The notes below the pieces were generated by a model, which was given only the letters and a program-made list of their open reading frames with translations, searched no databases and was not told the DNA's origin. This document shows positions 25,490-61,408 of a stretch of 64,000 nt of DNA, piece after piece. A program made the translations under genes and the position numbers. Numbering within the stretch: position 1 is the stretch's first letter; every line of letters begins with the position of its first letter. Source of the stretch: a virus (lineage: Duplodnaviria; Caudoviricetes); IMG/VR virus record IMGVR_UViG_3300037780_000034, positions 96,001 to 160,000 of that record; one strand, 5' to 3'.

Positions 25490-25513
25490 GTGATTCAGAT
25501 TGGAGTGAGTATA

Positions 25514-26542
25514 ATGATAAAATTAAAAGACTTTGTTGATTTGATTTCGGATTTACAACGCAGGGATTTATCAATTAACAGTATTGCAGTTGGTCCAACT
25601 GATGAATTTTGCACTATGGTTGATCCTTTTGATGGTGAAACTGATATAAAAAATAAAGTTTTACGTCATACAAGTGATGCATTTATGGATGATCCTGTTC
25701 GTGTATTACGAATTGCAAGATTCCGTGCACGATTTGGAAGTGATTGGAAGATTGCAGAAGATACAAAAACATTAATTCATAAGATGGGAAAGTCTGGGGT
25801 TCTTGATGAACTTCAACCCGATAGAATTTGGAAAGAACTAAGTCGGGCACTTATGGAAAAACATCCTCGTTTGTTTTTTGACACTCTATTAGAGTGTGAT
25901 GTCTTGCATATTATTTTCCCAGAAATATATGCACTTTGTAGTGCATTGGAAAGTCATAGGTGGCATCCAGAAGGGAATGCATATGAGCATACTATGCTTG
26001 TATTGACACAAACAACTCGTTACGAATTTGGAGAAGAATTTGGTCTATTATTGCGTCTTGCTGCATTAGTTCACGATTTTGGAAAAGGATTGACACCAAA
26101 GGATAAATTACCAAAACATTATGGACACGATGTTAATGGTGTATCAGTGGTTGAAAGTTTTTGTAAAAGGCTTCGTGTTCCTACAGTTATGTGCAATCGT
26201 GTAAAAAAAGCAACACGATATCATATGTATATGCATAAATTAACTGAGTTGAATTCAAAAACTTATGTTAAAATGTTTAGCGATATGAATTCGTGGAATG
26301 ATGAAACCACAGTTGACTTATTGTATTGGGTAGGGATCGTTGATAGTCGTGGCAGGTTGGGAAGTGAACATTGTTCTATTGATGAACTACAGTTACTTCC
26401 AAAAATTTGGAATAATGTTAGAAGTGTAAAGTTTGTTGATGTATTTCCAAATGGTGAGACTGATGTTAATAAGATTAAAAAAGGATTGGAAAACGCTAGG
26501 ATTAATGCAGTAACAGAAGCAAAGAAAGAATTTCAAATATGA
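25514..26542 (+). CDS. cca: CCA-adding enzyme, C-terminal part with HD phosphohydrolase domain
   Basis: DLQRRDLSINSIA, DPFDG, DDPVRVLRIARF, ERIW-like DRIWKEL, HDFGKG. Confidence 0.85.
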   Translation: MIKLKDFVDLISDLQRRDLSINSIAVGPTDEFCTMVDPFDGETDIKNKVLRHTSDAFMDDPVRVLRIARFRARFGSDWKIAEDTKTLIHKMGKSGVLDELQPDRIWKELSRALMEKHPRLFFDTLLECDVLHIIFPEIYALCSALESHRWHPEGNAYEHTMLVLTQTTRYEFGEEFGLLLRLAALVHDFGKGLTPKDKLPKHYGHDVNGVSVVESFCKRLRVPTVMCNRVKKATRYHMYMHKLTELNSKTYVKMFSDMNSWNDETTVDLLYWVGIVDSRGRLGSEHCSIDELQLLPKIWNNVRSVKFVDVFPNGETDVNKIKKGLENARINAVTEAKKEFQI

Positions 26543-40811: not shown

Positions 40812-40933
40812 TGCATCGTAGCTCAGAGGTAGAGCAGGTGACTGTGGATGCTAAAGGTCATAGGGTCAGTTCGATTCTGACAGCATCAACCGTAATCACT
40901 TGGTCGCAGGTTCGATCCCTGCCGATGCAGCCA
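40812..40933 (+). tRNA. tRNA-Asn(GTT) interrupted in the anticodon loop by a 47-nt tRNA-minihelix insert (40846-40892)
   Basis: Removing the insert gives GGTGA-CTGTTAA-TCACT; G73 and CCA present. Confidence 0.75.
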
Positions 40934-41420: not shown

Positions 41421-41516
41421 AAATATGTCGGTTCCATTCAGTTGGTTTATTGAAGAACGATACTTCAATTTAGTCTAGTCGTTTAGACAATCGGCTCCAT
41501 TTTTAAACTTTTTTTT

Positions 41517-41645
41517 AGGATCATTTCCGCAATATTTTACTTTGCATCAGAAGCACGTGTTTGCAGGTTCAAGTCCTGCCTCCCCAACCATAATAATTGA
41601 CGGGGAGTAGGCAAATGGTAAAGCCGCGTTAAGTAATATGATCCT
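41517..41645 (+). tRNA. Circularly permuted tRNA (anticodon CAG) in WCMGCAA scaffold
   Basis: 3' part 41544-41590 (ends CCA) precedes 5' part 41601-41629; rejoined stem CGTGC/GCACG. Confidence 0.7.
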
Positions 41646-41756
41646 GTTATATACTACAGGCTAACTTTTGGGGGTTAGCTTGGTGTTACAGAAGTATAGG
41701 AAATCATTCGGAACCAAATAATGCCTATACCATTTTACGGTTCCAGCAAAACACAG

Positions 41757-41785
41757 TTGACAACCGATAGAGAATCAGCTACATT
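41757..41785 (+). promoter_or_regulatory. sigma70-type promoter with GAATC
   Basis: TTGACA-17-TACATT; GAATC at 41772. Confidence 0.7.
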
Positions 41786-41827
41786 ACAGACACTGAAAAT
41801 GAAACCACTAACAAAAGGTGAAACACT

Positions 41828-42280
41828 ATGAAGGGCATTGAAGCCAAATATACTGCTAAAGTAATTGCAAAAATGATCAAACATAATCGTTCAATTGAAC
41901 GCAAACATCAGCGTAAAAGTGAACGTGATTTCTTTGATGATGAAAGCTATGTTATTGCAAACTTTACACATAAAGAAGGAAAGAAACTTTCTTCACAATT
42001 TCGTGCATTTATGATCCATAATGCTTTTAAGAAAAATCGTGGATTTACAAGTGCAGAAGTTGCTTATTTTAACCTTGGTGAAAATTCACTGTCTACTATC
42101 AAAGAGAATAAAGAACTATATTCACGATATATGGATAGGTTTAAACGCCAGCAAAAAGCAATTAACATTGTTCGTCATAAACTTCTTGATCATAATGAAC
42201 GTGAAAGTTTTGAAAACTGGCTTAACACAAATGCAATGAATGAAACTTACTTTGACGAAAATTTCCTTCAACCTGCATAA
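41828..42280 (+). CDS. Hypothetical protein
   Basis: 150-aa ORF behind a promoter. Confidence 0.7.
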   Translation: MKGIEAKYTAKVIAKMIKHNRSIERKHQRKSERDFFDDESYVIANFTHKEGKKLSSQFRAFMIHNAFKKNRGFTSAEVAYFNLGENSLSTIKENKELYSRYMDRFKRQQKAINIVRHKLLDHNERESFENWLNTNAMNETYFDENFLQPA

Positions 42281-42286
42281 TACTGG

Positions 42287-42344
42287 TTGACACTGTTGAA
42301 AATCATTGATATAGTGTCAACAACAACAAAACGCTCTTTGACAA
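42287..42344 (+). promoter_or_regulatory. Internal promoter with second boxA
   Basis: TTGACA-17-TATAGT then CGCTCTTTGACAA at 42332. Confidence 0.65.
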
Positions 42345-42432
42345 TTTAACCATCTTCCCTATGCGAAAGCTATGATGGGATAAAAACAGACTTATTGTGT
42401 AAGATGAAGAATCTGTAAATCGCAATTGGTTG

Positions 42433-42538
42433 TCTGTTTTGAATATGATAGCACCACTTCCGAGTAATCAGATAATAACTGATTATTTCGAGTTAATTAA
42501 TAGTTTGAGCAAACGGATGCTATCATATTCAAAACAGA
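42433..42538 (+). ncRNA. Long-stem ncRNA candidate
   Basis: Perfect 21-bp inverted repeat TCTGTTTTGAATATGATAGCA. Confidence 0.5.
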
Positions 42539-42543
42539 TATAA

Positions 42544-42617
42544 GGCTCTATTGCATTGTGGAATGCAGCGGCTTCTAACCCCGTTTCAAGCAGGTTCGAC
42601 TCCTGTTAGGGCCACCA
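42544..42617 (+). tRNA. Arg-type tRNA body with ambiguous anticodon (CTA in canonical register, TCT in shifted register)
   Basis: GCGGC-TTCTAAC-CCCGT; A20; CCA. Confidence 0.7.
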
Positions 42618-42727
42618 AATAAAACCAAATGGAGAGAAAAATGTTCTAGATTTATATACCACCATAACTTCTATTGATTTAAAGTTTAAAGAAAGACCTT
42701 TACTCAAATATCAATAGGAGAAACAAA

Positions 42728-43108
42728 ATGAGTATTCAATTAAAAATTAAAAATAAACATCTTAGTGAAGAAGCACGAATCATACGTTTTGAAGAAAACA
42801 AAATCAAAAAACACGCTCGTAACGTAAGAGAACGTCAAGGGCACCAAACTGCCGATGATATAATGAAAACTTTTCAGTCACTTAGACATCATCGCAGATG
42901 GGACGTTCGTAACGAAAATCGTGCTACTTTTATTGCCAGAGCCTTCATAGAAGGAAAATCATATAAACAAGTTGAAACCAAACGTAATCCAGAGAATGAA
43001 TATACATTTATAGCGTTTGTGTTGCCAAGAGTGTTGACAATGGTAAACAAGTATGGCAATGTCCAGATAACAAAAGAAGAATTACTCAAATGGTGTAATC
43101 AAGAATAA
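42728..43108 (+). CDS. Hypothetical phage protein
   Basis: LKIKNKHLSEEARIIR...HRRWDVR.E.RA motif. Confidence 0.7.
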   Translation: MSIQLKIKNKHLSEEARIIRFEENKIKKHARNVRERQGHQTADDIMKTFQSLRHHRRWDVRNENRATFIARAFIEGKSYKQVETKRNPENEYTFIAFVLPRVLTMVNKYGNVQITKEELLKWCNQE

Positions 43109-43115
43109 CTAAAAC

Positions 43116-43192
43116 GGAAGCATAGCATAATTGGTTAATGCCCACGTCTCATAAACGTGTTTATCTTGGTTCAAGTCCAAGTGCTTCCACCA
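43116..43192 (+). tRNA. tRNA-Met/Ile2(CAT)
   Basis: CACGT-CTCATAA-ACGTG. Confidence 0.9.
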
Positions 43193-43337
43193 ATATGTTG
43201 AAACTTAATTGTCAGTCTGACGTTTCAATATTAATTAATTAATGACTGGCCAAAGGCTTGATGTGTTAAAAACCTTGTGGTGATGTAATCAAGATAAACC
43301 ACATAAACTCCTTTGTATGAAATGAAATTTCCTCTTT

Positions 43338-43394
43338 AGGATGATTACCGCAAAATTAATAAACTTTTTTTTGGTAAAAGCAGAACATCATCCT
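43338..43394 (+). ncRNA. WCMGCAA-scaffold RNA carrying a bare Gln(TTG)-type anticodon stem-loop
   Basis: AGGATGA/TCATCCT; CTTTT-TTTTGGT-AAAAG. Confidence 0.6.
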
Positions 43395-43407
43395 GATTGT
43401 GTATTGT

Positions 43408-43487
43408 GGGCGAGTGGGCAAATTGGTAAAGTCGGTTCACTCAAAATGAGAGTCATTTTGTCGGTTCGAGTCCGACCTCGCCTACCA
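43408..43487 (+). tRNA. tRNA-Leu(CAA)
   Basis: Loop CTCAAAA, variable arm, CCA. Confidence 0.85.
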
Positions 43488-43572
43488 ATTTTATCTTATG
43501 AGTTAAGATTTGTTTTAATCATTGAAGTCCCTCTACGGGCACCAACAACTATAAACACTAAAATAGAATAAT

Positions 43573-43647
43573 GCGGACATCGTATAAGGTTATTACGCTT
43601 GGCGACCAGCTAAGAAATACAGGTTAGAATCCTGTTGTCCTGCTCCA
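43573..43647 (+). tRNA. Atypical tRNA-Gly-like gene (anticodon ACC, G33, bulged acceptor)
   Basis: CTTGG-CGACCAG-CTAAG; T-loop TTAGAAT. Confidence 0.55.
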
Positions 43648-43655
43648 AATAACTG

Positions 43656-43684
43656 TTGACACTCACCAGAGAATCAACTATAGT
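43656..43684 (+). promoter_or_regulatory. sigma70-type promoter with GAATC
   Basis: TTGACA-17-TATAGT; GAATC at 43671. Confidence 0.75.
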
Positions 43685-43708
43685 AACAGTGTAAGAACTA
43701 ATACTTGT

Positions 43709-43785
43709 GGGCCTGTAGCATAATTGGTTAATGCCCAGTGCTCATAACACTGTCAATCGCGGTTCAAGTCCGTGCGGGCCTACCA
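43709..43785 (+). tRNA. tRNA-Met/Ile2(CAT)
   Basis: CAGTG-CTCATAA-CACTG. Confidence 0.9.
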
Positions 43786-43805
43786 GTATTAGTTTTTGAT
43801 TTTTT

Positions 43806-43863
43806 AGGATGACTTCCGCAAAATTATGCATTTGACCGTTAATCAAAAAAGCAAAATCATCCT
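43806..43863 (+). ncRNA. WCMGCAA-scaffold RNA carrying a bare Asn(GTT) anticodon stem-loop
   Basis: AGGATGA/TCATCCT; TTTGA-CCGTTAA-TCAAA. Confidence 0.6.
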
Positions 43864-43873
43864 GTAATAGAAT

Positions 43874-43967
43874 GGGCGCGTGGCGAAATTGGTTGAAACG
43901 CAAGGCACTTAAAATGCCTCACAGATTAGTGATCACACTGTGGGTTCGAGTCCCACCGCGCCTACCA
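43874..43967 (+). tRNA. tRNA-Leu(TAA)
   Basis: AGGCA-CTTAAAA-TGCCT; long variable arm. Confidence 0.92.
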
Positions 43968-44026
43968 AAATGTAGTAAACACAAAGAAATTTACTTCTAC
44001 TCATAAATAAGTAGAAGGAGAATTAA

Positions 44027-44467
44027 ATGAGTGATTACTTCAAAAATTATATGAACTTAACAAAAGAAAACAGACAAAGACACTTAGATATATCTTCACC
44101 TTGTGAAGAACGTGGTGGGAATAGCACAATATATAGAGGAGTCCTTGCTCAATATTTAAACACTCCTATCCCGATGGGTAGGATAGCAGTTCTGGCTCAC
44201 GCATGTAACAATAATAAATGTTCTAATCCACAGCATTTATATTGGGCGACAGACAGAGAGAATATAGTAGAAGATGGAAAAAAGTTTGGAACTTTTAAGA
44301 GTGTTTGGGAACGAATGGTAGACAAGCACGGTTATGAAGAAGCTTGTAGGCTACAAGCCAACGGTGCCCAATCAAAGGCAGGACAAGGAAACAAAGGTAA
44401 ACGAAAGTCTGAAGAACATAAGCGCAAAATATCCGAATCTTTAAAAATAAAAAATAGAAAAGAATAA
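44027..44467 (+). CDS. HNH homing endonuclease with NUMOD3-like tail
   Basis: HACNNNKCSNPQHLYWAT.REN; KSEEHKRKISES. Confidence 0.75.
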   Translation: MSDYFKNYMNLTKENRQRHLDISSPCEERGGNSTIYRGVLAQYLNTPIPMGRIAVLAHACNNNKCSNPQHLYWATDRENIVEDGKKFGTFKSVWERMVDKHGYEEACRLQANGAQSKAGQGNKGKRKSEEHKRKISESLKIKNRKE

Positions 44468-44538
44468 ATCTTCTAATAATATAAATAATTATAGAAATTT
44501 GCAACCATTATACAACTACCAAAAAGGATTAAAATGTT

Positions 44539-44661
44539 AGGATCATTACCGCAATTTTATTTGCATTTCCAGCCGTAGATGCAGGTGCAATTCCTGCTCA
44601 CCCTACCAATATAAATTATGGGGTGATCGTCTAATAGTAGGACAACGTATAATATGATCCT
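44539..44661 (+). tRNA. Circularly permuted tRNA-Glu(TTC) in WCMGCAA scaffold
   Basis: 3' part 44563-44608, 5' part 44620-44647; rejoined stem ACGGC/GCCGT; Glu-type D arm. Confidence 0.72.
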
Positions 44662-44697
44662 GTTCTTTAAAAAAAAGAAAGTTAATTTAAGTTTTTT

Positions 44698-44815
44698 AGA
44701 TTATGTTCAGCAAACCATATAAATTATATGAAAGCCTATCAACGTTGCCGGAAGGCCCGTATGGCAAACCCAGTTTTCGATTTTCTGGTTCTATAAAAAA
44801 GTAGACACATAATCT
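44698..44815 (+). ncRNA. WCMGCAA-scaffold RNA with long-variable-arm-like and T-arm-like hairpins
   Basis: AGATTATGT/ACATAATCT; TTCAGCAA. Confidence 0.5.
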
Positions 44816-44823
44816 GTAATAAT

Positions 44824-44900
44824 TGCGGGGTAGACTGGAGAGGTACCCAGCACGGTCTCATAAGCCGATCACGGCGGTTCGAATCCGCCCCCCGCAACCA
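44824..44900 (+). tRNA. Initiator-like tRNA-Met(CAT)
   Basis: TGCGGGG/CCCCGCA acceptor; loop CTCATAA. Confidence 0.85.
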
Positions 44901-44985
44901 TTTTTATAAAATGATAATTCCCTTTATTTTTACGAGTTTCCTTTCCGAGTAAAAATATCAAGGTTGAGTTATCATTTTATAAAAA
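44901..44985 (+). ncRNA. Long-stem hairpin ncRNA candidate
   Basis: TTTTTATAAAATGATAATT/AGTTATCATTTTATAAAAA. Confidence 0.45.
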
Positions 44986-45164
44986 TGAGGATATAAATTA
45001 TGGATAAAGAAATACAAGATTTTATAGATTTTTGGAAAGAAAAAGATGTAAAATTACCAAATCCACAAAATTATCCAAAATCTTTTGAATGGTATGTTAC
45101 AATGTGGAAATATCACACAAAATAATATTATAAATACCTATGTAAGTTAACATAGGAGATAATA

Positions 45165-45809
45165 ATGTCATTAATAAGAATTCAACAAATACTAAAAGAT
45201 ATGAACCACGATCCAGGTCCAATTGATGGATTATGGGGAAGCAGAACAAAAGCTGCATTAGAAAGTTTAATACAATGGGAAGGAAAACCAGTAACGGTTA
45301 CTTCCAATTCATCTGATGATGATTTACCTTGGATGATAGAAGGAAAAAAAGTATTTGGGTTTCACGAAGTTAGAAATAATAGTGAATTAAGAAAATGGTT
45401 AAGAAGTGATGGTGCTACTCTTGGTGATCCAAAAGCACTTCCCTGGTGTGGTGATTTTACCGAGACTGCTATAAAAAACTCATTACCAACTGAACCTTTT
45501 ACTGGTAGAATGCTTGAAAATCCATATTGGGCAAGAAATTGGCTTGAATTTGGTCGTGCATCGCCTGCTATATATGGATGCATAGGCGTTTTTAGTAGAG
45601 GCACAGGAGGTCACGTTGGTTTCTTGGTAGGTGAAGATGCAACAGACTATTATGTTTTTGGTGGAAATCAAAGCGATAGTGTTAATATAGTAAGAATAGA
45701 TAAAAAACGTTTACTGGGAACAAGATGGCCATTGACTTACAATATTGTTAATACACCATTACCTAAAAGAGACCCAAAAACTGTAATCAAATCAGTTAAT
45801 GAAATATAA
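45165..45809 (+). CDS. Endolysin-like protein: PG-binding domain plus TIGR02594/NlpC-CHAP-like amidase
   Basis: PGPIDGLWGSRT; PWCG, ARNW, GHVGF, GGNQ; TATAAATA at 45129. Confidence 0.8.
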   Translation: MSLIRIQQILKDMNHDPGPIDGLWGSRTKAALESLIQWEGKPVTVTSNSSDDDLPWMIEGKKVFGFHEVRNNSELRKWLRSDGATLGDPKALPWCGDFTETAIKNSLPTEPFTGRMLENPYWARNWLEFGRASPAIYGCIGVFSRGTGGHVGFLVGEDATDYYVFGGNQSDSVNIVRIDKKRLLGTRWPLTYNIVNTPLPKRDPKTVIKSVNEI

Positions 45810-45818
45810 GGAAAAGTT

Positions 45819-46055
45819 ATGAAAATAGTATTTGCCCAAGGTGCATTTGATGATTTTGATGGAACACAAGAAGAACTTGATAACCTTCTTTCGGAATTAA
45901 AAGAAATGATTGAAAGTGGTTCACTTATGGAAAAAAGTGAACCAGTGGATTTAGACTTATTGCAAGAAGAAAATCCAGAAATATATGAAAAAATTATGAA
46001 GTTTGATAGTTTAGATCAAGATACGTTTGAAAATACTAAAAATAAACTCCATTAA
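45819..46055 (+). CDS. Hypothetical acidic protein
   Basis: FAQGAFDDFDGTQEELD motif. Confidence 0.6.
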   Translation: MKIVFAQGAFDDFDGTQEELDNLLSELKEMIESGSLMEKSEPVDLDLLQEENPEIYEKIMKFDSLDQDTFENTKNKLH

Positions 46056-46059
46056 TTTT

Positions 46060-46138
46060 GGCCCCATCGTCTACGCTGGTGTTAGGATACTCGGCTTTCA
46101 TCCGAGAGAAGTCGGTTCAATTCCGTCTGGGGCTACCA
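46060..46138 (+). tRNA. tRNA-Glu(TTC)
   Basis: CTCGG-CTTTCAT-CCGAG. Confidence 0.9.
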
Positions 46139-46145
46139 AAATAAT

Positions 46146-46231
46146 GTGTCGGTGGGTGAGCGGTTTAAACCACCTGACTGTAAATCAGGCGCTGAAAAGC
46201 AACGCTAGTTCGAATCTAGCCCGACACACCA
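46146..46231 (+). tRNA. tRNA-Tyr(GTA)
   Basis: CCTGA-CTGTAAA-TCAGG; variable arm. Confidence 0.92.
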
Positions 46232-46273
46232 AATATTATGAGTGCAAAGTTACAAGCACTCAAAACAAATCTT

Positions 46274-46350
46274 GTGCGTGTGTAGCTGAATGGTTAAGCG
46301 CAGGATTGCAAATCCTGATTATGTTGGTTCGAGTCCAATCACGCACTCCA
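46274..46350 (+). tRNA. tRNA-Cys(GCA)
   Basis: CAGGA-TTGCAAA-TCCTG; U73. Confidence 0.88.
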
Positions 46351-46389
46351 ATATAGTCTACTCTAATAAATAATAAAAAAGGTAAAAAA

Positions 46390-46560
46390 ATGGAAATATC
46401 TGATAGGATTGAATCTTTAAAAGCAAAACATCGTGAACTTGATAGTAGGATTGAAGTTCTGTATGCTGAAAGAGTAGACGAAAAGTATATAACTTCTCTA
46501 AAAAAAGAAAAGTTAAAGATAAAAGAAGAAATTACTAAGTTACAAAATAGCTTAGTATAA
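46390..46560 (+). CDS. DUF465/YdcH-like small coiled-coil protein (not in ORF track)
   Basis: MEISDRIESLKAKHRELD...LKKEKLKIKEEI. Confidence 0.65.
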   Translation: MEISDRIESLKAKHRELDSRIEVLYAERVDEKYITSLKKEKLKIKEEITKLQNSLV

Positions 46561-46568
46561 AATAATTT

Positions 46569-46652
46569 AGGAATATTTCAGCAAATTTATCTTGGATAAA
46601 ACATTGTTCTCAAAAACAAAGTGAAGTGGTTCAAATCCACATCAATATTCCT
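46569..46652 (+). ncRNA. WCMGCAA-scaffold tRNA mimic (D-like, anticodon-like and T arms; no CCA)
   Basis: AGGAATAT/ATATTCCT; TTGTT-CTCAAA-AACAA; GTGG-TTCAAAT-CCAC. Confidence 0.55.
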
Positions 46653-46663
46653 GACTAATATCT

Positions 46664-46773
46664 TGGAACATTACCGCAACTATAACATAAACAATGGGTT
46701 ACAGGTTCAAATCCTGTCTTTTACAGTTTGTAAAAGTAGTTCAATGGTAGAACAATTGTCAAAAAATGTTCCA
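46664..46773 (+). tRNA. Degenerate circularly permuted tRNA (anticodon CAT) in WCMGCAA scaffold
   Basis: 3' part ~46684-46725, 5-nt linker, 5' part 46730-46759; GTAAAAG/CTTTTAC acceptor; no encoded CCA. Confidence 0.6.
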
Positions 46774-46782
46774 GTATTTTAT

Positions 46783-46856
46783 GGGGGATTAGTTCAATGG
46801 TAGAACAGGTGCTTTACGCGCATCATACAGCAGTTCGATTCTGTTATCCCCTACCA
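46783..46856 (+). tRNA. tRNA-Val(TAC)
   Basis: GGTGC-TTTACGC-GCATC. Confidence 0.9.
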
Positions 46857-46871
46857 ATATTAGGAAAAAAT

Positions 46872-47309
46872 ATGAATAATAAATGGGATTTAAGATTTTT
46901 AGAATTAGCAAAACATATTGCAGAATGGTCAAAAGACCCAAGCACAAAAGTTGGGTGTGTAATAGTAAGACCAGATAAAACTATTGCGTCTGTTGGTTAC
47001 AATGGATTTCCACGTGGTGTTAATGATGAACCAGAAAGATATAATAATCGTGAGATAAAATATCTTATGGTAAAACACGCAGAAGAGAATGCAGTATACA
47101 GTTCAAAAGAATCATTGACTGGATATACGGCGTATGTTACACACTATCCGTGTTCTAGTTGCACAGGAACACTAATACAAAATGGAATAAAAAGAATTGT
47201 AACACAAAAACCAGATGATAGTTTTGCTTCAAGGTTTCGTGATAGTTTTGAATCATCAAAAATAATGATTAATGAAACTGGTATAGAATTAGTTTTAATA
47301 GAAGATTAA
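46872..47309 (+). CDS. dCMP deaminase
   Basis: SKDPSTKVG, GYNGFPRG, HAEEN, PCSSC. Confidence 0.9.
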   Translation: MNNKWDLRFLELAKHIAEWSKDPSTKVGCVIVRPDKTIASVGYNGFPRGVNDEPERYNNREIKYLMVKHAEENAVYSSKESLTGYTAYVTHYPCSSCTGTLIQNGIKRIVTQKPDDSFASRFRDSFESSKIMINETGIELVLIED

Positions 47310-47311
47310 AT

Positions 47312-47396
47312 GGGCTAGTGTTGAAATAGGTAGACAATGCGCACTTAGAATGCGTTGCCGAAAGGCGTGGGGGTTCAAGTCCCTCCTAGCCTACCA
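47312..47396 (+). tRNA. tRNA-Leu(TAG)
   Basis: GCGCA-CTTAGAA-TGCGT; variable arm. Confidence 0.92.
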
Positions 47397-47415
47397 TTAT
47401 TGAAAGGATACAAAA

Positions 47416-47588
47416 TGAAAAACAAAATAAAAACACCTAAACCACGAAATGAATATGCAATTTCTGCAAGGTTTAGAACAGGTGCTGGTCCTATGCAAAA
47501 ATCTAAGAAAGCACAGAGACAACAAGATAAAATTGCTTTAAAGAAAAAAGGTAAAGACTACTTTAACAATAGAGAAACTATTCTTTAA
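47416..47588 (+). CDS. Small basic hypothetical protein
   Basis: KPRN.YA...GAG motif; start after the tRNA. Confidence 0.55.
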
Positions 47589-47735
47589 GTAGTCTTGTTT
47601 TATAATATATGAAAGGATATAATATGTTTACATTAATAGTAGGAATAGTAATTGGTGCTTTCATTGGTTGGAATTTTCCACAACCAGAGTTTGCTAGAAA
47701 TATTCAAAATAAGATAAAAAATATTCTAAAATAAT

Positions 47736-48509
47736 GCCACGGTAGCTCAGTCCGGTAGAGCATACAGGTTTGTAAAATAGTAAATATCTAAAAAGGATAT
47801 TTACTATGATTAGAAATAAAATAGAATGTAAAAAATGTGAAAGATTGATAAGTTTATCAAATCATAAAAGACATACACAATCCTGTAATGGCAAAAAAGT
47901 ATCTTCAAACAAAACTATTGAAGAAAATCATATTGATTGGAAAACAATACAAGAAGATTATGACAATGGATTAACATACCGTGGAATAACAGAAAAATAC
48001 AAAATATGTCAACAATCAATATCAAATGCGAGAAAAAAAGGTCTGTTAAAAACACGTTCTAAATCAGAAGCCTCTAAACTTTATTATAAAAATAATACAC
48101 CAAACATAATGAGCGATGAGGCCAGAAAAAGAATTTCTGAAAAAATGTCCGAACATAATCACGGCGGAAGAAGTAAATGGTTTGAGATAGATGGGAAGAA
48201 AGTCCAAGGAACTTGGGAGCTTAACTTTGCCAAATTTTGCAAAGAGAACAACATAGAATGGCAAAGATGCAAACCTTGGAAATATAAAATGGATAAAAAA
48301 ATAAGAAGCTATACACCAGACTTTTATATTCCAAGCAAAAAATTATTTATAGAAATAAAAGGTCATTGGTGGGGAGATGATAGAAGAAAAATGAACTGTG
48401 TAATAGAACAACATCCTGATAAAAACATTCTTATAATAGAAAAAGAGATATACGAACAGATGCTAGATGGAAAATTAGAATGGTGATTCGAATTCACATC
48501 GTGGCACCA
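47736..48509 (+). pseudogene. tRNA-Thr(TGT)-like gene split by an endonuclease gene
   Basis: 5' part GCCACGG...TTTGTAA (47736-47775); 3' part GTGA-TTCGAAT-TCAC-A-TCGTGGC-A-CCA (~48483-48509). Confidence 0.65.
47806..48486 (+). CDS. PD-(D/E)xK-type (TnsA/DUF559-like) putative homing endonuclease
   Basis: QGTWEL, YTPDFY, IEIKG; N-terminal Zn/HTH region. Confidence 0.7.
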   Translation: MIRNKIECKKCERLISLSNHKRHTQSCNGKKVSSNKTIEENHIDWKTIQEDYDNGLTYRGITEKYKICQQSISNARKKGLLKTRSKSEASKLYYKNNTPNIMSDEARKRISEKMSEHNHGGRSKWFEIDGKKVQGTWELNFAKFCKENNIEWQRCKPWKYKMDKKIRSYTPDFYIPSKKLFIEIKGHWWGDDRRKMNCVIEQHPDKNILIIEKEIYEQMLDGKLEW

Positions 48510-48512
48510 TAG

Positions 48513-48605
48513 TTTTATGATACACTGTCCGCAACAGGTCTTGATGGGGTAGCTTACGAGCAAGCCAAAGTGTAGGTGTAAGTCCTACCGCAGTGTATCA
48601 TAAAA
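48513..48605 (+). ncRNA. WCMGCAA-scaffold RNA with 15-bp stem and T-arm
   Basis: TTTTATGATACACTG/CAGTGTATCATAAAA; TCCGCAA; GTAGG-TGTAAGT-CCTAC. Confidence 0.55.
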
Positions 48606-48615
48606 ATATAAATAT

Positions 48616-48692
48616 TGTTCTGTAGCACAATTGGTTTAGTGCAGGCGACTGATAATCGTCAGATTCAAGTTCAAATCTTGACAGAACAACCA
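48616..48692 (+). tRNA. tRNA-Ile(GAT)
   Basis: GGCGA-CTGATAA-TCGTC. Confidence 0.92.
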
Positions 48693-48701
48693 ACAAATTT
48701 A

Positions 48702-48777
48702 TGGTAGAAGGGAAATTGGCGACCGACCGCACTTTGAATGCGTGTTATTGTAAGTTCGAATCTTACTCTACCAACCA
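48702..48777 (+). tRNA. tRNA-Gln(TTG)
   Basis: CGCA-CTTTGAA-TGCG; U1-A72. Confidence 0.85.
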
Positions 48778-48799
48778 ATATAAAGTAAAAATGAAATAC

Positions 48800-48884
48800 G
48801 GACAAGTGCCCGAGAGGACAAAGGGAACTGACTTTTAATCAGTCGCTATATGCTACGTGGGTTCGAATCCCACCTTGTTCACCA
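48800..48884 (+). tRNA. tRNA with Lys(TTT) anticodon on a Tyr-like type II body
   Basis: ACTGA-CTTTTAA-TCAGT; D arm CCCGAGAGGACAAAGGG; long variable arm. Confidence 0.85.
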
Positions 48885-48962
48885 AAATATGGTCGAATCA
48901 GATTGACATATACAGTCAACTATGCTATTGTATAGTATATTCAATGAAAGAAAGATATTACT

Positions 48963-49409
48963 ATGAAAATTGAATACCGTCAAGGCGATCTATTTAAAAC
49001 AGAGATTAAAACAATTGTTCACGGATGCAATGCGCAAGGTGTTATGGGGTCTGGGGTTGCGAATATAATTCGTGAACAATATCCAGAAGCATATGAGCGT
49101 TATCGTAATGAGTATGAAAAACATAATTATCTAAAGCTTGGTGATATCATATCAGTTCCTTGTAATTACAAGTTTATTGTAAACGCTATTACACAAGAGT
49201 ATTTTGGGCGTGACAATAAACGATATGTTAGCTATGATGCAGTAGATGACGTTATGGTAAAGTTAAATAAATTTTACGATATATACGGTATTTCAGAAAT
49301 TGCTATGCCAAAAATTGGTGCTGGTTTAGGAAATGGTTCTTGGGAAGTGATAGAAGCAATCATAGAGAATCGTCTTGACACCGTGAAACCAGTAGTGTAT
49401 ACTATGTGA
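48963..49409 (+). CDS. Macro domain ADP-ribosylhydrolase-like protein
   Basis: GDLF, HGCNAQGVMGSGVA, MPKIGAGLGNG.W. Confidence 0.88.
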   Translation: MKIEYRQGDLFKTEIKTIVHGCNAQGVMGSGVANIIREQYPEAYERYRNEYEKHNYLKLGDIISVPCNYKFIVNAITQEYFGRDNKRYVSYDAVDDVMVKLNKFYDIYGISEIAMPKIGAGLGNGSWEVIEAIIENRLDTVKPVVYTM

Positions 49410-49420
49410 TATGAAATAAT

Positions 49421-49497
49421 CTCCACGTAGCTCAACTGGACAGAGCGAGTGACTTCTAATCACTAGGTTGAGGGTTCGATTCCTTCCGTGGAGGCCA
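49421..49497 (+). tRNA. tRNA-Arg(TCT)
   Basis: AGTGA-CTTCTAA-TCACT. Confidence 0.93.
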
Positions 49498-49561
49498 TTT
49501 CTTATACTACCTTATACCCTACTAACAGGTATAAATACCTATGAACTAGGAGAATACTATA

Positions 49562-49957
49562 ATGAGCATTTCAAACCAAAAAGGTGATATAGGGGAAGCA
49601 CATTTTGTTTTAAGGGCTACTGAAAAGGGATATTGGACTGGAAAAATGCCACAAGACTGCCCTTATGATTTTGTATTGGATAGAGGAAAAGGATTAGAGC
49701 GTGTTCAGGTAAAATACAGGTCTAGTGCAAAAAAAGGTTCAATACAAATTAATTCCTTTAATTCAAGTCCGCAATCAAATAGAACATATAACGGTTTCGT
49801 TGATCAATTTGCAGTATATAACCCAGAAACATCAGAAGTATATCTTATTCCAGCTAATTTAGTAATGGAATCTGGTGCTTCTATTTTTAGAGTAGAATAT
49901 CCTAAAAATAATCAACTAAAAGGTGTAACTTTTCTTTCTGAATTCAAAGAATGGTAG
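49562..49957 (+). CDS. PD-(D/E)xK endonuclease (intron-associated PDDEXK_5-like)
   Basis: KGDIGE, YDFVLD, RVQVKY; TATAAATA at 49530. Confidence 0.75.
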   Translation: MSISNQKGDIGEAHFVLRATEKGYWTGKMPQDCPYDFVLDRGKGLERVQVKYRSSAKKGSIQINSFNSSPQSNRTYNGFVDQFAVYNPETSEVYLIPANLVMESGASIFRVEYPKNNQLKGVTFLSEFKEW

Positions 49958-49980
49958 TTCGAATCTTACTTGCAGCACCA
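49953..49980 (+). pseudogene. Orphan tRNA 3' fragment (T arm, acceptor strand, CCA) overlapping the endonuclease stop
   Basis: GTAG-TTCGAAT-CTTAC-TTGCAGC-A-CCA. Confidence 0.55.
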
Positions 49981-50096
49981 ATAAAAATATTGTATTGAAC
50001 CCCACTATTCATATGCTGAGTGTTTTAGACCTGACACTGTGAAGCGAATATGCGTTCAATACCTGCTAGGGGAATTGGTCCCTCCTAGTCAGTTTT

Positions 50097-50170
50097 GGCC
50101 CCTTGGTATATGGATATTACGCTCGGCTGTCTACCGGGAAAAACGGGTTTGAGTCCCGTAGGGGTCGCCA
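50097..50170 (+). tRNA. tRNA-Asp(GTC)
   Basis: CTCGG-CTGTCTA-CCGGG; G73. Confidence 0.9.
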
Positions 50171-50171
50171 A

Positions 50172-50575
50172 TATAGACTGTGACGTAATCGGCCCTTGTG
50201 AGGAACGCTCCCGTAACCAGTCGGGTTAAAGTTGCAAACAACCCAGTCTATAAAATAAAGTCCTATGTCCGACTTACCGATTTTGGTATTTTGGCTTAGG
50301 CACCAGTTTGATCTAGATACTTTTATTTTTGGAGCAAGAGTAGTCGTGTGTGATGATAAAAATGAAAGTCGTTTCAATGCTAGACAACATTCGGTTCAAG
50401 GACGTGCGAACCAGTATTATGACACCTGCACGTTGACCCTGAAACCAGTGTGCAGCATTATACGATGGGTAACAGTCTGGAGAGTGACAGACATATATGC
50501 GAAAAGGGTTTTTAGTAGTATGTGGTAATTCTTAAACCCTGAAATATCCATTAAGATCGTCGGTAGGCCACATAT
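50172..50575 (+). ncRNA. ~400-nt structured ncRNA region
   Basis: Several stems (ATAGACTG/CAGTCTAT, GGTTC/GAACC, CTGCAC/GTGCAG, AGGGTTT/AAACCCT) and a possible pseudoknot TATGTGG/CCACATA. Confidence 0.45.
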
Positions 50576-50577
50576 TT

Positions 50578-50652
50578 GGGGGATTGGTGAAATCAGGATC
50601 ACGTAGGTGTTGCATACCTAAATTATCGGGGCAGGTCCGATATCCTCCACCA
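50578..50652 (+). tRNA. tRNA-Ala(TGC) with atypical T-loop
   Basis: G3-U70, A73; TAGGT-GTTGCAT-ACCTA; T-loop GGCAGGT. Confidence 0.8.
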
Positions 50653-50812
50653 TATAAATAAAGGATATGTTATGATTGGTTTAATATTTTTATCATTTAG
50701 TCCATTGTTTTTGATAGCATCAAATGACTATTTTGGTAAAATTTCTTCTATAATTTGTGCTGTTATTGGCATAACCATAATAACTATATCTCTGTTAATG
50801 TAAGGAATAAAA

Positions 50813-51142
50813 ATGTCATATGAAAAACCACTTCCTAAACCATTATATCCGCCAGTTGACCAAGGTTCACTAAAAGCTTTTGAATATTACAAAGAATTTA
50901 TAGAATATCTTGGAGCAAAGCCGGTAAATCATACTGAAATAGAAAATGGTGATACCACAAGTTTAGAACATTTGTTATGGATGTGTAATCATTGTATACC
51001 AAGAATTCGTGATGATGGATTAGGATTTAATGTTTCTAAGTATTCACGATGGTTAGGATACATACAAGGTTGTTTAATTTGTAAAGGTTACACAAGTGTA
51101 GCACAAGAAAGAGACAGAACAAGAAACTTTTTTAATGAATAA
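50813..51142 (+). CDS. Hypothetical phage protein
   Basis: HLLWMC...KYSRWLGYIQG. Confidence 0.65.
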   Translation: MSYEKPLPKPLYPPVDQGSLKAFEYYKEFIEYLGAKPVNHTEIENGDTTSLEHLLWMCNHCIPRIRDDGLGFNVSKYSRWLGYIQGCLICKGYTSVAQERDRTRNFFNE

Positions 51143-51148
51143 TCTTTT

Positions 51149-51367
51149 TGGATCAGTTCAGCAAACAATATTTCCGTGAAAAGGACCGTGACGGTGGTGC
51201 AAATCCGCCCTTCCCCGCCACAGATACACTATGACAACATAGACGGGTTAATCGCCGTAGGAACGAAGCAGTTTCCAAACCAACGATAGGAAGAGTTTGT
51301 CGTCTTCTGTAGTGTATCTTTGACGGGGAAGTAGCTCAGTTAGTAGAGCAGGTAAAAAGTTGATCCA
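51149..51367 (+). tRNA. Circularly permuted tRNA-Phe(GAA) in WCMGCAA scaffold; linker holds another hairpin RNA
   Basis: 3' part 51174-51220, 5' part 51325-51353; rejoined 76 nt with stem GGTCC/GGACC. Confidence 0.75.
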
Positions 51368-51368
51368 G

Positions 51369-61025: not shown

Positions 61026-61081
61026 TAAATAGGTATTGACAGCAACTGCGATATAGTATATAGTTACTACTATGTGTTATT

Positions 61082-61408
61082 ATGCCTGAACATTGTTCAG
61101 GTATAATCTTTATAAGGAATCTAAAAATGTCAAACAGAAACACAACAAACGATATTAAATTTATTGATCCAATAACTTATGAAGTTGTATGCACCTATAA
61201 TGGGTGTTCAGAAAAATTTGAAATACATAAAACGGAAATAAAAGAAAGACACAAACCAAACAAAAAACAAGAGAGAGACATTGTTTATTTTCAACACTAT
61301 AGAAAATGCAATGAATGTGGCAAAACCATAAGACTTAATATTGATGAAAGGGCTACACGTTCAAGTAAAGCTGTAGCCATAAAAAAATCTTTAAAAGAAA
61401 AAGACTGA
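61082..61408 (+). CDS. Hypothetical Cys-containing protein
   Basis: C...C...CNEC; start uncertain. Confidence 0.5.
   Translation: MPEHCSGIIFIRNLKMSNRNTTNDIKFIDPITYEVVCTYNGCSEKFEIHKTEIKERHKPNKKQERDIVYFQHYRKCNECGKTIRLNIDERATRSSKAVAIKKSLKEKD

What the first reader, a model, noticed from the sequence alone, without database searches (positions are those of the whole stretch)
41517..51367. Nine-copy RNA scaffold (covarying stem plus WCMGCAA) that presents permuted tRNAs, bare anticodon loops and tRNA mimics
Seen: nine intergenic elements share one layout, a terminal stem whose sequence changes but whose pairing holds, followed on the 5' side by the motif WCMGCAA. The stems are AGGATCAT/ATGATCCT (41517, 44539), AGGATGA/TCATCCT (43338, 43806), AGATTATGT/ACATAATCT (44698), AGGAATAT/ATATTCCT (46569), TGGAACATT/AATGTTCCA (46664), a 15-bp stem (48513) and TGGATCA/TGATCCA (51149). 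Eight of nine have G right after the stem. The payload is tRNA-derived or tRNA-like: whole permuted tRNAs (4), anticodon stem-loops only (2), partial mimics (3). Established: permuted tRNA genes are known in some algae (e.g. Cyanidioschyzon merolae) and the archaeon Thermofilum, where BHB motifs direct processing. I do not know a bacterial or phage equivalent. Inference: the scaffold is a recognition or processing module, either (a) for cutting and ligating permuted tRNAs, (b) for two-piece aminoacylatable RNAs like the permuted two-piece tmRNA of alphaproteobacteria, or (c) for displaying anticodon decoys against host anticodon nucleases.
Basis: partly seen in the sequence, partly recalled or inferred. 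Interest (0 to 1): 0.95.

Follow-up and report, generated by a model that had tools for sequence, protein, structure and literature searches.

The report
Phage Y-like RNAs carrying tRNA parts
The nine repeats are real small-RNA genes of a 318-kb phage: one conserved "handle" holds out copies of tRNA parts, and the same handle sits beside a Ro60-like ring-protein gene in very different phages, so they look like an uncatalogued viral version of the Ro60/Y-RNA particle, not working rearranged tRNA genes.

Summary
All nine elements are at the stated places, on the + strand, inside the tRNA array of a 317,722-bp IMG/VR phage.

- **Shared layout:** a closing helix that covaries, then W-C-M-G-C-A-A, an A-rich 3' linker, and G after the helix in 8 of 9.
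- **Cargo:** four rotated tRNA bodies, two bare anticodon-type hairpins and three partial mimics.
- **Not unique to this phage:** the same handle (mostly ACAGCAA) occurs many times, unannotated, in the tRNA regions of Cronobacter phage GAP32, Pectobacterium phage CBB and Serratia phage BF.
- **Linked gene:** the handle lies directly beside a DUF2828+vWA gene in 17 of the 18 phage loci checked, which infect Proteobacteria, Firmicutes, Actinobacteria and Fusobacteria.
- **This phage has that gene** 51 kb upstream. Its predicted fold matches Ro60/TROVE structures over the full length.

Best reading: these are Y-RNA-like partner RNAs of a phage Ro60-like protein that display tRNA parts. The closest known kinds are bacterial YrlA and the Dictyostelium Class I RNAs. 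The elements reach neither family's Rfam threshold.

Cut-and-ligate maturation of permuted tRNAs is unsupported: I found no BHB motif, no splicing endonuclease and no RtcB. Protein binding and function are inferred. This scan has reported the same RNA family before on other genomes.

The parts
41516..41646 (+). el1. Closing helix 41516-41524 / 41638-41646, motif TCCGCAA 41526-41532. Cargo is a rotated tRNA body (T arm, CUCCCCA-A-CCA, 11-nt spacer, GGGGAG..., Leu-type D arm) plus an anticodon-type hairpin with loop AUCAGAA.
43336..43396 (+). el2, a short member. Helix 43336-43345 / 43387-43396, motif ACCGCAA 43347-43353. Cargo is one hairpin, CUUUU-UUUUGGU-AAAAG (Gln-UUG-like loop). It ends 11 nt before tRNA-Leu(CAA).
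   Evidence: (R1 39.9 bits)
43805..43864 (+). el3, a short member. Helix 43805-43812 / 43857-43864, motif TCCGCAA 43815-43821. Cargo is the hairpin UUUGA-CCGUUAA-UCAAA (Asn-GUU-like loop with C at position 33). It ends 9 nt before tRNA-Leu(UAA).
   Evidence: (R1 35.4 bits)
44538..44662 (+). el4. Helix 44538-44546 / 44654-44662, motif ACCGCAA 44548-44554. Cargo is a rotated tRNA body with UCACCCU-A-CCA, an 11-nt spacer, GGGGUGA and a D arm, plus the loop AUUUCCA. ARAGORN calls Glu-UUC only when positions 29 and 30 are joined.
44697..44816 (+). el5. Helix 44697-44706 / 44807-44816, motif TCAGCAA 44707-44713. Cargo is four hairpins, one with a UUCGAUU T-loop-like sequence, and is not a full tRNA body. 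It ends 7 nt before tRNA-Met.
46567..46654 (+). el6. Helix 46567-46577 / 46644-46654, motif TCAGCAA 46578-46584. Cargo is a small hairpin, an anticodon-arm-like hairpin (CUCAAA loop) and a canonical T arm (GUGG-UUCAAAU-CCAC).
46663..46774 (+). el7. Helix 46663-46672 / 46765-46774, motif ACCGCAA 46673-46679. Cargo is T arm, an acceptor-like stem sealed by a short loop (no CCA), D arm and the stem ACAAU/AUUGU. This is the YrlA-type layout. It ends 8 nt before tRNA-Val.
   Evidence: (RF02553 31.5 bits, model 1-114)
48513..48605 (+). el8. A 15-bp helix 48513-48527 / 48591-48605, motif TCCGCAA 48528-48534. Cargo includes a T-arm-like hairpin (GUAGG-UGUAAGU-CCUAC). There is no G after the helix. It ends 10 nt before tRNA-Ile.
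   Evidence: (z -4.3)
51148..51368 (+). el9. Helix 51148-51155 / 51361-51368, motif TCAGCAA 51158-51164. Cargo is a hairpin with loop GUGAAAA, a T arm, CUUCCCC-G-CCA, a 104-nt insert that forms its own long hairpin, GGGGAAG and a D arm.
   Evidence: z -3.9

Best explanation
The nine elements are genes for small structured RNAs of one family, built like Y RNAs.

**The handle.** The 5' and 3' ends pair into a closing helix. Only the pairing and the base of this helix (WAGR...YCUG) are conserved. The helix is followed on the 5' side by single-stranded W-C-M-G-C-A-A and preceded on the 3' side by an A-rich linker.

**The cargo.** The rest is interchangeable and made of tRNA parts: whole tRNA bodies in rotated order, anticodon-type hairpins or T arms.

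**Release from the transcript.** The RNAs lie in the tRNA transcription units, 7-11 nt upstream of tRNA genes. They are therefore probably freed by the enzymes that process tRNAs (inferred).

**The partner.** The handle is most likely the binding site of the phage's Ro60-like ring protein (DUF2828 + vWA/MIDAS, 475 aa, genome 85,209-86,636, 51 kb upstream on the same strand). This would mirror the way the 5' GNCGAA motif of YrlA serves Rsr.

**Likely processing and function.** By analogy with M. smegmatis YrlA, el1, el4 and el9 (7-bp acceptor stem, encoded CCA, spacer) would be opened by RNase P into two-piece tRNA-like RNAs that stay clamped by the handle (inferred). The particle probably acts on tRNA-directed traffic during infection, either presenting tRNA or anticodon look-alikes to host tRNA-cleaving or tRNA-handling factors, or tethering such factors to the ring protein and an exonuclease (inferred; the weakest step).
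For: **(1) The family is real and conserved.**
- The same handle is present many times in related and distant phages, always on the strand of the tRNAs.
- The helix covaries.

**(2) Linkage to the protein gene, tested here.**
- Handle RNAs lie directly downstream of the gene in 8 IMG/VR loci fetched with the protein alone. None has tRNAs beside the gene; only L025 holds any tRNA genes, over 3 kb away.
- They lie directly after the 'Ro-like RNA binding protein' gene of Mycobacterium phage GuuelaD, and after the DUF2828 gene of Shigella phage Sf13.
- They lie directly beside the gene in Campylobacter, Staphylococcus, Bacillus, Listeria, Enterococcus, Fusobacterium and Aeromonas phages.
- All 9 handle-bearing records tested hold a DUF2828 gene. 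In the two closest relatives (the records behind L004 and L005) the RNAs abut it.

**(3) The protein folds like Ro60.**
- The AlphaFold model has pLDDT 77.
- The top 13 Foldseek PDB hits are all Ro60/TROVE over the full length. Thermus phage phiLo Ro60 (9l5y, 9kop) gives TM 0.57-0.62 and E down to 1e-8. Xenopus and human Ro60 and Deinococcus Rsr also match.
- The MIDAS DxSxS motif is invariant.

**(4) The architecture is that of YrlA.**
- RF02553 aligns el7 end to end at 31.5 bits.
- Relatives have acceptor stems sealed by UUCG or AUCG tetraloops.

**(5) Precedent.**
- M. smegmatis YrlA is cleaved by RNase P and gains CCA in vivo (PMC4201824).
- phiLo Ro60 binds two phage Y-like RNAs and host PNPase (PMC12135203).
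- Bas63 gp130, described there as structurally Ro60-like (I did not test its family), counters the ppl defence system. Its authors guessed that some of the neighbouring 'tRNA genes' are Y RNAs (bioRxiv 10.1101/2024.10.10.617714).

**(6) Anticodon-type loops are about 7-fold enriched in short cargos.**
- Asn (CUGUUAA) and Lys (CUUUUAA / CUUUUAC) loops recur in separate phage lineages.
Against: - No binding or expression data exist for this phage.
- Here the protein gene is 51 kb from the RNAs, and in the Rak2-like phages about 200 kb. In the jumbo phages the link therefore rests on co-occurrence, not adjacency.
- The Pfam TROVE model does not hit the genome.
- The motif differs from the GNCGAA / CGAA motif of proven Ro60 partners.
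- The window's own motif variants (UCCGCAA, ACCGCAA) differ from the commonest ACAGCAA.
- In the cited preprint, gp130 alone acted against ppl when moved to T7, so the protein may work without these RNAs.
- One of the ten isolate phages checked (Vibrio PVA23) showed no clear handle near the gene.
Confidence: 0.7

Rival explanations
1. el1, el4 and el9 are true circularly permuted tRNA genes (Leu-CAG, Glu-UUC, Phe-GAA). The handle brings positions 29 and 30 together, an endonuclease removes it, a ligase seals the nick in the anticodon stem, and RNase P with 3' trimming opens the acceptor end. The products are working tRNAs.
For: - All three have 7-bp acceptor stems, a discriminator base and an encoded CCA, like the phage's ordinary tRNAs.
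- After rotation ARAGORN calls tRNAs. For el4 it does so only with the 29|30 join.
- ARAGORN finds no ordinary tRNA-Phe in the genome.
- The phage encodes an RNA ligase of family PF09414 and a CCA-adding enzyme.
Against: - There is no bulge-helix-bulge geometry. The linkers are 6-11 nt and the helix 7-9 bp.
- The genome has no splicing endonuclease and no RtcB.
- The same handle carries cargos that can never become tRNAs: bare hairpins, sealed acceptor stems, and 200-nt inserts.
- The handle sits beside Ro60-like genes in phage loci with no tRNA genes beside them.
- The anticodon called for el1 and el9 depends on where one joins.
- Phage tRNA sets are rarely complete, so a missing Phe is weak evidence.
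Confidence: 0.08
2. The RNAs are free-standing decoys or sponges for host anticodon nucleases or tRNA-modifying enzymes. The handle only stabilises the RNA against exonucleases and binds no dedicated protein.
For: - Anticodon-type loops are enriched.
- Lys-UUU and Asn-GUU loops recur in separate phage lineages.
- Known anticodon nucleases such as PrrC (tRNA-Lys) and colicin E5 (Tyr, His, Asn, Asp tRNAs) cut such loops.
Against: - A mere clamp would not need an invariant single-stranded C-N-G-C-A-A (invariant columns).
- It would also not be expected to track one protein family across phyla.
- Orthologous elements differ in their loops (GAP32 CUUUUAC against CBB CCUAACC).
- Many cargos have no anticodon-like loop at all.
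Confidence: 0.15
3. The inverted repeats act at the DNA level, as ends of a mobile cassette or targets of the homing endonucleases scattered through the array, and are not RNA genes.
For: - HNH and PD-(D/E)XK endonuclease ORFs lie among the tRNAs.
- The cargos look shuffled between copies.
Against: - Orientation is strictly with the tRNAs and genes, with no family-like hits on the other strand.
- G-U pairs are tolerated in the helix.
- A conserved motif lies on one side only.
- The spacing to tRNA 5' ends is fixed at 4-11 nt.
- Some loci form a self-contained gene-RNA-RNA-terminator operon.
Confidence: 0.03

Closest known systems
YrlA, the bacterial and phage Y RNA-like RNAs bound by Ro60/Rsr (Rfam RF02553; Chen et al. 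2014, PMC4201824)
   Same: - The 5' and 3' ends pair, and a short conserved single-stranded motif follows the 5' strand.
- The interior is a tRNA-like domain in the order T arm, acceptor-like hairpin, D arm.
- The M. smegmatis member is cut by RNase P and gains CCA.
- The RNAs are encoded with a Ro60-fold protein. Phage examples are known.
   Different: - The motif is W-C-M-G-C-A-A, not GNCGAAN0-1G.
- The best Rfam score is 31.5 bits against a threshold of 69.
- The partner candidate is a DUF2828+vWA protein that the TROVE model does not detect.
- There are nine copies per genome, spread through the tRNA array 51 kb from the protein gene.
- The cargo also includes bare anticodon-type hairpins, and full anticodon arms on rotated tRNA bodies with an encoded CCA.
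Class I RNAs of dictyostelid social amoebae (Rfam RF01414; Kjellin et al. 2021, PMC7919456)
   Same: - About 60 nt long.
- A short covarying stem joins the ends.
- A conserved motif directly follows the 5' strand. The Rfam consensus contains CCUUACAGCAA.
- An A-rich 3' part, a start like AAG and an end like CUGU.
- Five tandem handle RNAs of Aeromonas phage LAh_8 align to the whole model at 18-28 bits.
   Different: - Class I RNAs are eukaryotic. Their known binder is the RRM protein Rnp1A, and their function is unknown.
- All phage scores lie below the 41.5-bit threshold.
- The window's own short elements do not hit the model at all.
- Class I RNAs are not reported to carry tRNA parts.
Yrl1 and Yrl2 of Thermus phage phiLo with phiRo60 (PMC12135203; PDB 9L5Y, 9KOP)
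   Same: - A phage-encoded Ro60-fold protein with phage-encoded partner RNAs.
- Its structure is the best structural match of this phage's protein.
   Different: - Those RNAs were picked by a CGAA motif and lie next to the gene.
- The protein is a recognisable TROVE protein.
- No tRNA-part cargo is described.
Permuted tRNA genes of Cyanidioschyzon merolae and Thermofilum
   Same: In el1, el4 and el9 the 3' half of a tRNA precedes the 5' half.
   Different: There is no BHB motif, no splicing endonuclease and no evidence of circular intermediates. The flanks are a conserved handle that is shared with RNAs that are not tRNAs.

Membership tests
YrlA (RF02553) | GNCGAAN0-1G motif near the 5' end | tested here: not met
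   All nine elements have TCCGCAA, ACCGCAA or TCAGCAA at that place. Relatives have mostly ACAGCAA.
YrlA (RF02553) | tRNA-like domain (T arm, acceptor-like hairpin, D arm) enclosed by the paired ends | tested here: met
   Met for el1, el4, el7 and el9. Not met for el2 and el3 (hairpin only) or el5, el6 and el8 (partial).
YrlA (RF02553) | Rfam gathering score of 69 bits | tested here: not met
   Best scores are 31.5 bits (el7) and 21.4 bits (el1). The handle RNAs of GuuelaD also give no hit.
YrlA (RF02553) | Encoded within about 4 kb of a TROVE-domain Ro60 gene on the same strand | tested here: not met
   PF05731 does not hit the genome. The Ro60-fold DUF2828 gene is 51 kb upstream on the same strand.
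YrlA (RF02553) | Bound by Ro60/Rsr | not testable with these tools
   Needs immunoprecipitation or EMSA.
Phage handle RNAs beside DUF2828 Ro60-like genes (uncatalogued) | Covarying closing helix followed directly by N-C-N-G-C-A-A, with an A-rich 3' linker | tested here: met
   The 3' linker is 55% A.
Phage handle RNAs beside DUF2828 Ro60-like genes (uncatalogued) | The genome encodes a DUF2828+DUF7788 (vWA) protein with the Ro60 fold | tested here: met
   P0001 matches PF11443 at 1.7e-30 and PF25043 at 6.2e-50. The top 13 Foldseek hits are all Ro60.
Phage handle RNAs beside DUF2828 Ro60-like genes (uncatalogued) | RNA genes adjacent to the protein gene | tested here: not met
   Here the distance is 51 kb, and a terminator follows the gene. 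The RNAs are adjacent in 17 of the 18 other loci checked and in the records behind L004 and L005.
Dictyostelium Class I RNA (RF01414) | Rfam gathering score of 41.5 bits; CCUUACAGCAA motif | tested here: not met
   el2 and el3 give no hit even at E<=10 in a 551-nt search. Relatives in phage LAh_8 reach 18-28 bits.
Permuted tRNA genes (algal / archaeal type) | 3' half upstream of the 5' half of one tRNA | tested here: met
   el1, el4 and el9.
Permuted tRNA genes (algal / archaeal type) | BHB motif at the joined termini and a splicing endonuclease to cut it | tested here: not met
   By inspection, the termini form a 7-9-bp helix with 6-11-nt linkers and no 3-nt bulges around a 4-bp helix. PF01974 is absent and RtcB is absent.
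Two-piece (permuted) tmRNA | Match to the tmRNA models; a tag reading frame | tested here: not met
   No tmRNA-family hit on the elements. ARAGORN run with -m finds no tmRNA.

The most novel reading that the evidence does not exclude
A Ro60-like ring protein and a set of handle RNAs form a phage particle that holds out complete tRNA look-alikes, opened by RNase P and ending in CCA, together with bare anticodon arms. The particle would bait, sense or repair damage from host enzymes that cut or modify tRNA. The same handle in Dictyostelium Class I RNAs would then mean that this orphan eukaryotic RNA class belongs to one ancient Ro-type RNP family.
Probability: 0.25. Interest if true: 0.9.

Novelty: new variant of a known kind. 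Interest (0 to 1): 0.78.

Why it matters
Ro60/Y-RNA particles are known from animals, a few bacteria and a few TROVE-encoding phages. What Y RNAs are for is still debated.

- **Scale.** A second handle type travels with a very large, unnamed protein family. The search found at least 7,972 homologues and 710 isolate phage genomes, including the Felix O1-like, Rak2-like, Listeria P100-like and mycobacterial phages used in laboratories and in therapy. If that holds, most phage Ro-type particles have been overlooked.
- **Annotation.** Dozens of unannotated gaps in phage tRNA arrays would be genes.
- **What this window adds.** It holds the richest set so far: nine RNAs, three of them complete rotated tRNAs with CCA ends and anticodon arms. 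That makes "what does the cargo do?" directly testable.
- **Wider link.** It offers a lead on the Dictyostelium Class I RNAs, whose function has been unknown since they were first described.

Tried and rejected
- **Rfam at gathering thresholds:** only tRNAs.
- **Megablast of the region against isolate phages:** no match.
- **Public sequencing runs:** three DNA holders (pond and other metagenomes) and no RNA holder listed, so there is no expression evidence either way.
- **Model R1, built from short members:** it finds short members only, plus a few long ones weakly. Long-cargo members were found with my own stem-plus-motif scan instead.
- **A tenth candidate at 61030-61088:** it is a TTGACA-17-TATAGT promoter whose -35 box happens to read ACAGCAA, so I rejected it.
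- **Does each anticodon-type cargo precede its cognate tRNA?** In GAP32 the Asn-like and Gln-like elements precede tRNA-Asn and tRNA-Gln. The rule fails in this window and in CBB and BF, so I rejected it.
- **K-turn, Hfq (ARN) and hammerhead readings of the handle:** considered by eye and dropped, because the defining bases are absent.
- **Promoter scan:** not enriched over shuffles, so it is uninformative.
- **Genome searches that found nothing:** TROVE, RtcB and tRNA splicing endonuclease.
- **Literature search for 'permuted tRNA' with 'bacteriophage':** nothing relevant.
- **Literature search for DUF2828:** only plant and tardigrade papers.
- **Literature search for the motif text:** nothing usable.

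Full report
**Setting.** The window is bases 96,001-160,000 of a 317,722-bp IMG/VR virus record, estimated 85% complete. It was assembled from a pond metagenome. Between 40.8 and 54.5 kb lies a + strand tRNA array with 22 ARAGORN calls and 24 Rfam tRNA hits. Small ORFs are interspersed, among them HNH and PD-(D/E)XK endonucleases, a dCMP deaminase and a macro-domain protein.

**The observation.**
- Each has a perfect closing helix of 7-15 bp. After 0-2 nt comes TCCGCAA, ACCGCAA or TCAGCAA.
- The strand entering the 3' arm is A-rich. G ends or follows the helix in 8 of 9.
- The helices differ in sequence but keep their pairing.
- A family-filtered scan of both strands of the whole genome finds such elements only in this 10-kb stretch. 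The exceptions are three weak AT-rich matches and one promoter look-alike.
- Folding places the closing helix in the MFE structure of every element.
- The cargo is as described. el1, el4 and el9 hold T arm, 3' acceptor strand, discriminator, CCA, spacer (11, 11 and 104 nt), 5' acceptor strand and D arm, plus a small hairpin with a 7-nt anticodon-like loop. el7 has the same order with a sealed acceptor stem. el2 and el3 hold one hairpin each. el5, el6 and el8 hold T-arm-like and other hairpins.
- Rotating el1, el4, el7 and el9 in silico makes ARAGORN call tRNAs. For el4 this happens only with the 29|30 join that the earlier notes proposed. For el1, el7 and el9 the anticodon called depends on the join.

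**The family is not private to this phage.**
- I fetched relatives through a neighbouring 109-aa protein. That gave loci from 64-378-kb phages full of the same elements, all on the tRNA strand.
- Three of these loci are published phages: Cronobacter GAP32, Pectobacterium CBB and Serratia BF. In GAP32 the elements fill unannotated gaps of the tRNA region.
- The usual form there is UUAGAAUCUA-ACAGCAA ... A-rich ... UAGAUUCUAG.
- A covariance model of short members hits only the tRNA regions of five whole phage records, always on the + strand.
- Elements sit 4-11 nt upstream or 1-10 nt downstream of tRNA genes. They are therefore part of the tRNA transcripts.
- Sixty distinct helices show 4-6 pair types at almost every position. 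On a model-fitted alignment, all ten pairs change on both sides, and the covariation score is 0.357 against 0.171 in shuffles (0 of 500; best at slide 0).
- In the relatives, the long cargos are tRNA bodies whose acceptor stems are sealed by UUCG or AUCG tetraloops. Their anticodon stems covary between GAP32 and BF. Such RNAs cannot be ordinary tRNAs.

**What it resembles.**
- At permissive thresholds, the only non-tRNA Rfam family that aligns an element end to end is YrlA (RF02553). It scores 31.5 bits on el7 against a threshold of 69.
- YrlA RNAs are bacterial and phage Y RNAs. They have paired ends, a 5' GNCGAAN0-1G motif thought to bind Ro60/Rsr, and a rotated tRNA-like domain.
- M. smegmatis YrlA is cut by RNase P and receives CCA in vivo (PMC4201824). 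That is a direct precedent for what el1, el4 and el9 look built for.

**The partner.**
- Pfam TROVE does not hit the genome.
- Notes from earlier agents of this scan said that the same handle accompanies a Ro60-like DUF2828/vWA protein. I tested this myself, as follows.
- The genome encodes a 475-aa DUF2828+DUF7788 protein at 85,209-86,636. It is followed by its own terminator.
- Its AlphaFold model (pLDDT 77) has Ro60/TROVE structures as its top 13 PDB matches over the full length. Thermus phage phiLo Ro60 comes first, and only after these come vWA-only hits. The MIDAS DxSxS motif is invariant.
- Loci fetched with this protein alone show handle RNAs 30-700 nt downstream of the gene on the same strand, with no tRNA genes beside it. 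One is a gene-RNA-RNA-terminator operon.
- The protein family is found in 710 isolate phage records.
- Of ten isolate phages I opened, nine have handle RNAs directly beside the gene. These are Mycobacterium GuuelaD (three, one tRNA-like), Shigella Sf13 (four within the tRNA array that follows the gene), and Campylobacter, Staphylococcus, Bacillus, Listeria, Enterococcus, Fusobacterium and Aeromonas phages. Vibrio PVA23 was unclear.
- All nine handle-bearing records tested hold the gene. In the two closest relatives of this phage the RNAs abut it.
- This is the same kind of evidence that defined YrlA. Binding itself remains inferred.

**Cargo.**
- Among 89 distinct short cargos, 58 have a hairpin of at least 4 bp with a 7-nt loop, against 27.7 in shuffles.
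- Of those, 22 have a Y-U-NNN-R-N loop, against 3.0 in shuffles (maximum 8).
- CUGUUAA (Asn) and CUUUUAA / CUUUUAC (Lys) recur in separate lineages.
- Orthologous elements can differ in the loop.
- The cargo does not consistently match the neighbouring tRNA.

**A second relative.** Five tandem handle RNAs of Aeromonas phage LAh_8 align to the whole Rfam model of Dictyostelium Class I RNAs at 18-28 bits, against a threshold of 41.5. The consensus of that model contains CCUUACAGCAA between a terminal stem and an A-rich 3' part. The published description matches in architecture: a stem joining the ends, an 11-nt motif after the 5' strand, an AAG start, a CUGU end and a length of about 60 nt (PMC7919456). 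The window's own short elements, which carry CCGCAA variants, do not hit this model.

**Mechanism.**
- *Shown:* a conserved, covarying RNA family; its genomic linkage to a protein family; the Ro60-like predicted fold of that protein; tRNA-derived cargo.
- *Inferred:* the protein binds the handle; tRNA-processing enzymes release the RNAs; RNase P opens el1, el4 and el9 into two-piece RNAs; the particle acts in tRNA-centred conflict with the host.
- *Context:* the phage also encodes an RNA ligase and a CCA-adding enzyme. Published work shows phiLo Ro60 binding phage Y-like RNAs and PNPase. It also shows Bas63 gp130, described there as structurally Ro60-like, countering the ppl defence system; I did not check that gp130 belongs to this family.

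**Rivals.**
- Cut-and-ligate permuted tRNAs are unlikely. There is no BHB motif, no endonuclease and no RtcB, and the handle carries cargos that are not tRNAs.
- Free decoys are possible, but they do not explain the invariant motif or the gene linkage.
- A DNA-level cassette is unlikely, given strict strandedness, G-U pairs and a one-sided motif.

**Novelty.** I found no Rfam family and no searchable paper that describes this handle in phages. It is a new variant of the Ro60/Y-RNA kind. This scan has already reported the same family on other genomes. What this window adds is the nine-copy set with complete CCA-bearing rotated tRNAs, and a partner gene that is not adjacent.

Noticed in passing
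window 40812-40933: A tRNA (Rfam 54.5 bits over 119 nt) carries an insert of about 47 nt in the anticodon region. The insert itself folds as a small hairpin with a T-loop-like sequence. ARAGORN does not call this tRNA.
   Followed up: partly
window 47737-48512: This looks like a tRNA interrupted by a homing-endonuclease gene. A 5' acceptor strand and D arm lie at about 47737-47765. A 226-aa Phage_endo_I-like ORF follows at 47806-48486, and its stop overlaps a T arm. A 3' acceptor strand and CCA follow at about 48486-48510. el8 begins 3 nt later.
   Followed up: no
window 49950-49985: A T arm, 3' acceptor strand and CCA directly follow a PD-(D/E)XK endonuclease ORF (49562-49957). I did not find the matching 5' half.
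   Followed up: no
window 50172-50652: About 480 nt after tRNA-Asp hold only short overlapping ORFs (no more than 87 aa) and gave no Rfam or ARAGORN hit. They end in a cloverleaf-like fold (50577-50652) with a 7-bp acceptor stem, a D arm, a UGC-type loop, an odd T arm and an ACCA end. This may be another structured RNA or an intron-bearing tRNA.
   Followed up: partly
window 42544-42617: A tRNA with anticodon CUA, an amber-suppressor type that ARAGORN labels 'Pyl', lies in the array.
   Followed up: no
L023 7554-7795 (also L022, L025 and L027): The second handle RNA downstream of the Ro60-like gene in freshwater phages carries a cargo of about 200-220 nt that is conserved between loci and is not tRNA-like. 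This is a long-cargo class that I did not analyse.
   Followed up: no
L036 6852-8062 (Listeria phage LMTA-148): RtcB / tRNA-splicing ligase genes lie 1.3 kb downstream of the DUF2828 gene and its three handle RNAs. This echoes the rsr-yrlBA-rtcBA arrangement of Salmonella.
   Followed up: no
genome 36694-37191 (-), outside the window; window 25490-26542: The phage encodes an RNA ligase (PF09414, 368-aa frame) and a CCA-adding enzyme with an HD domain. Both are parts of a tRNA repair kit.
   Followed up: partly
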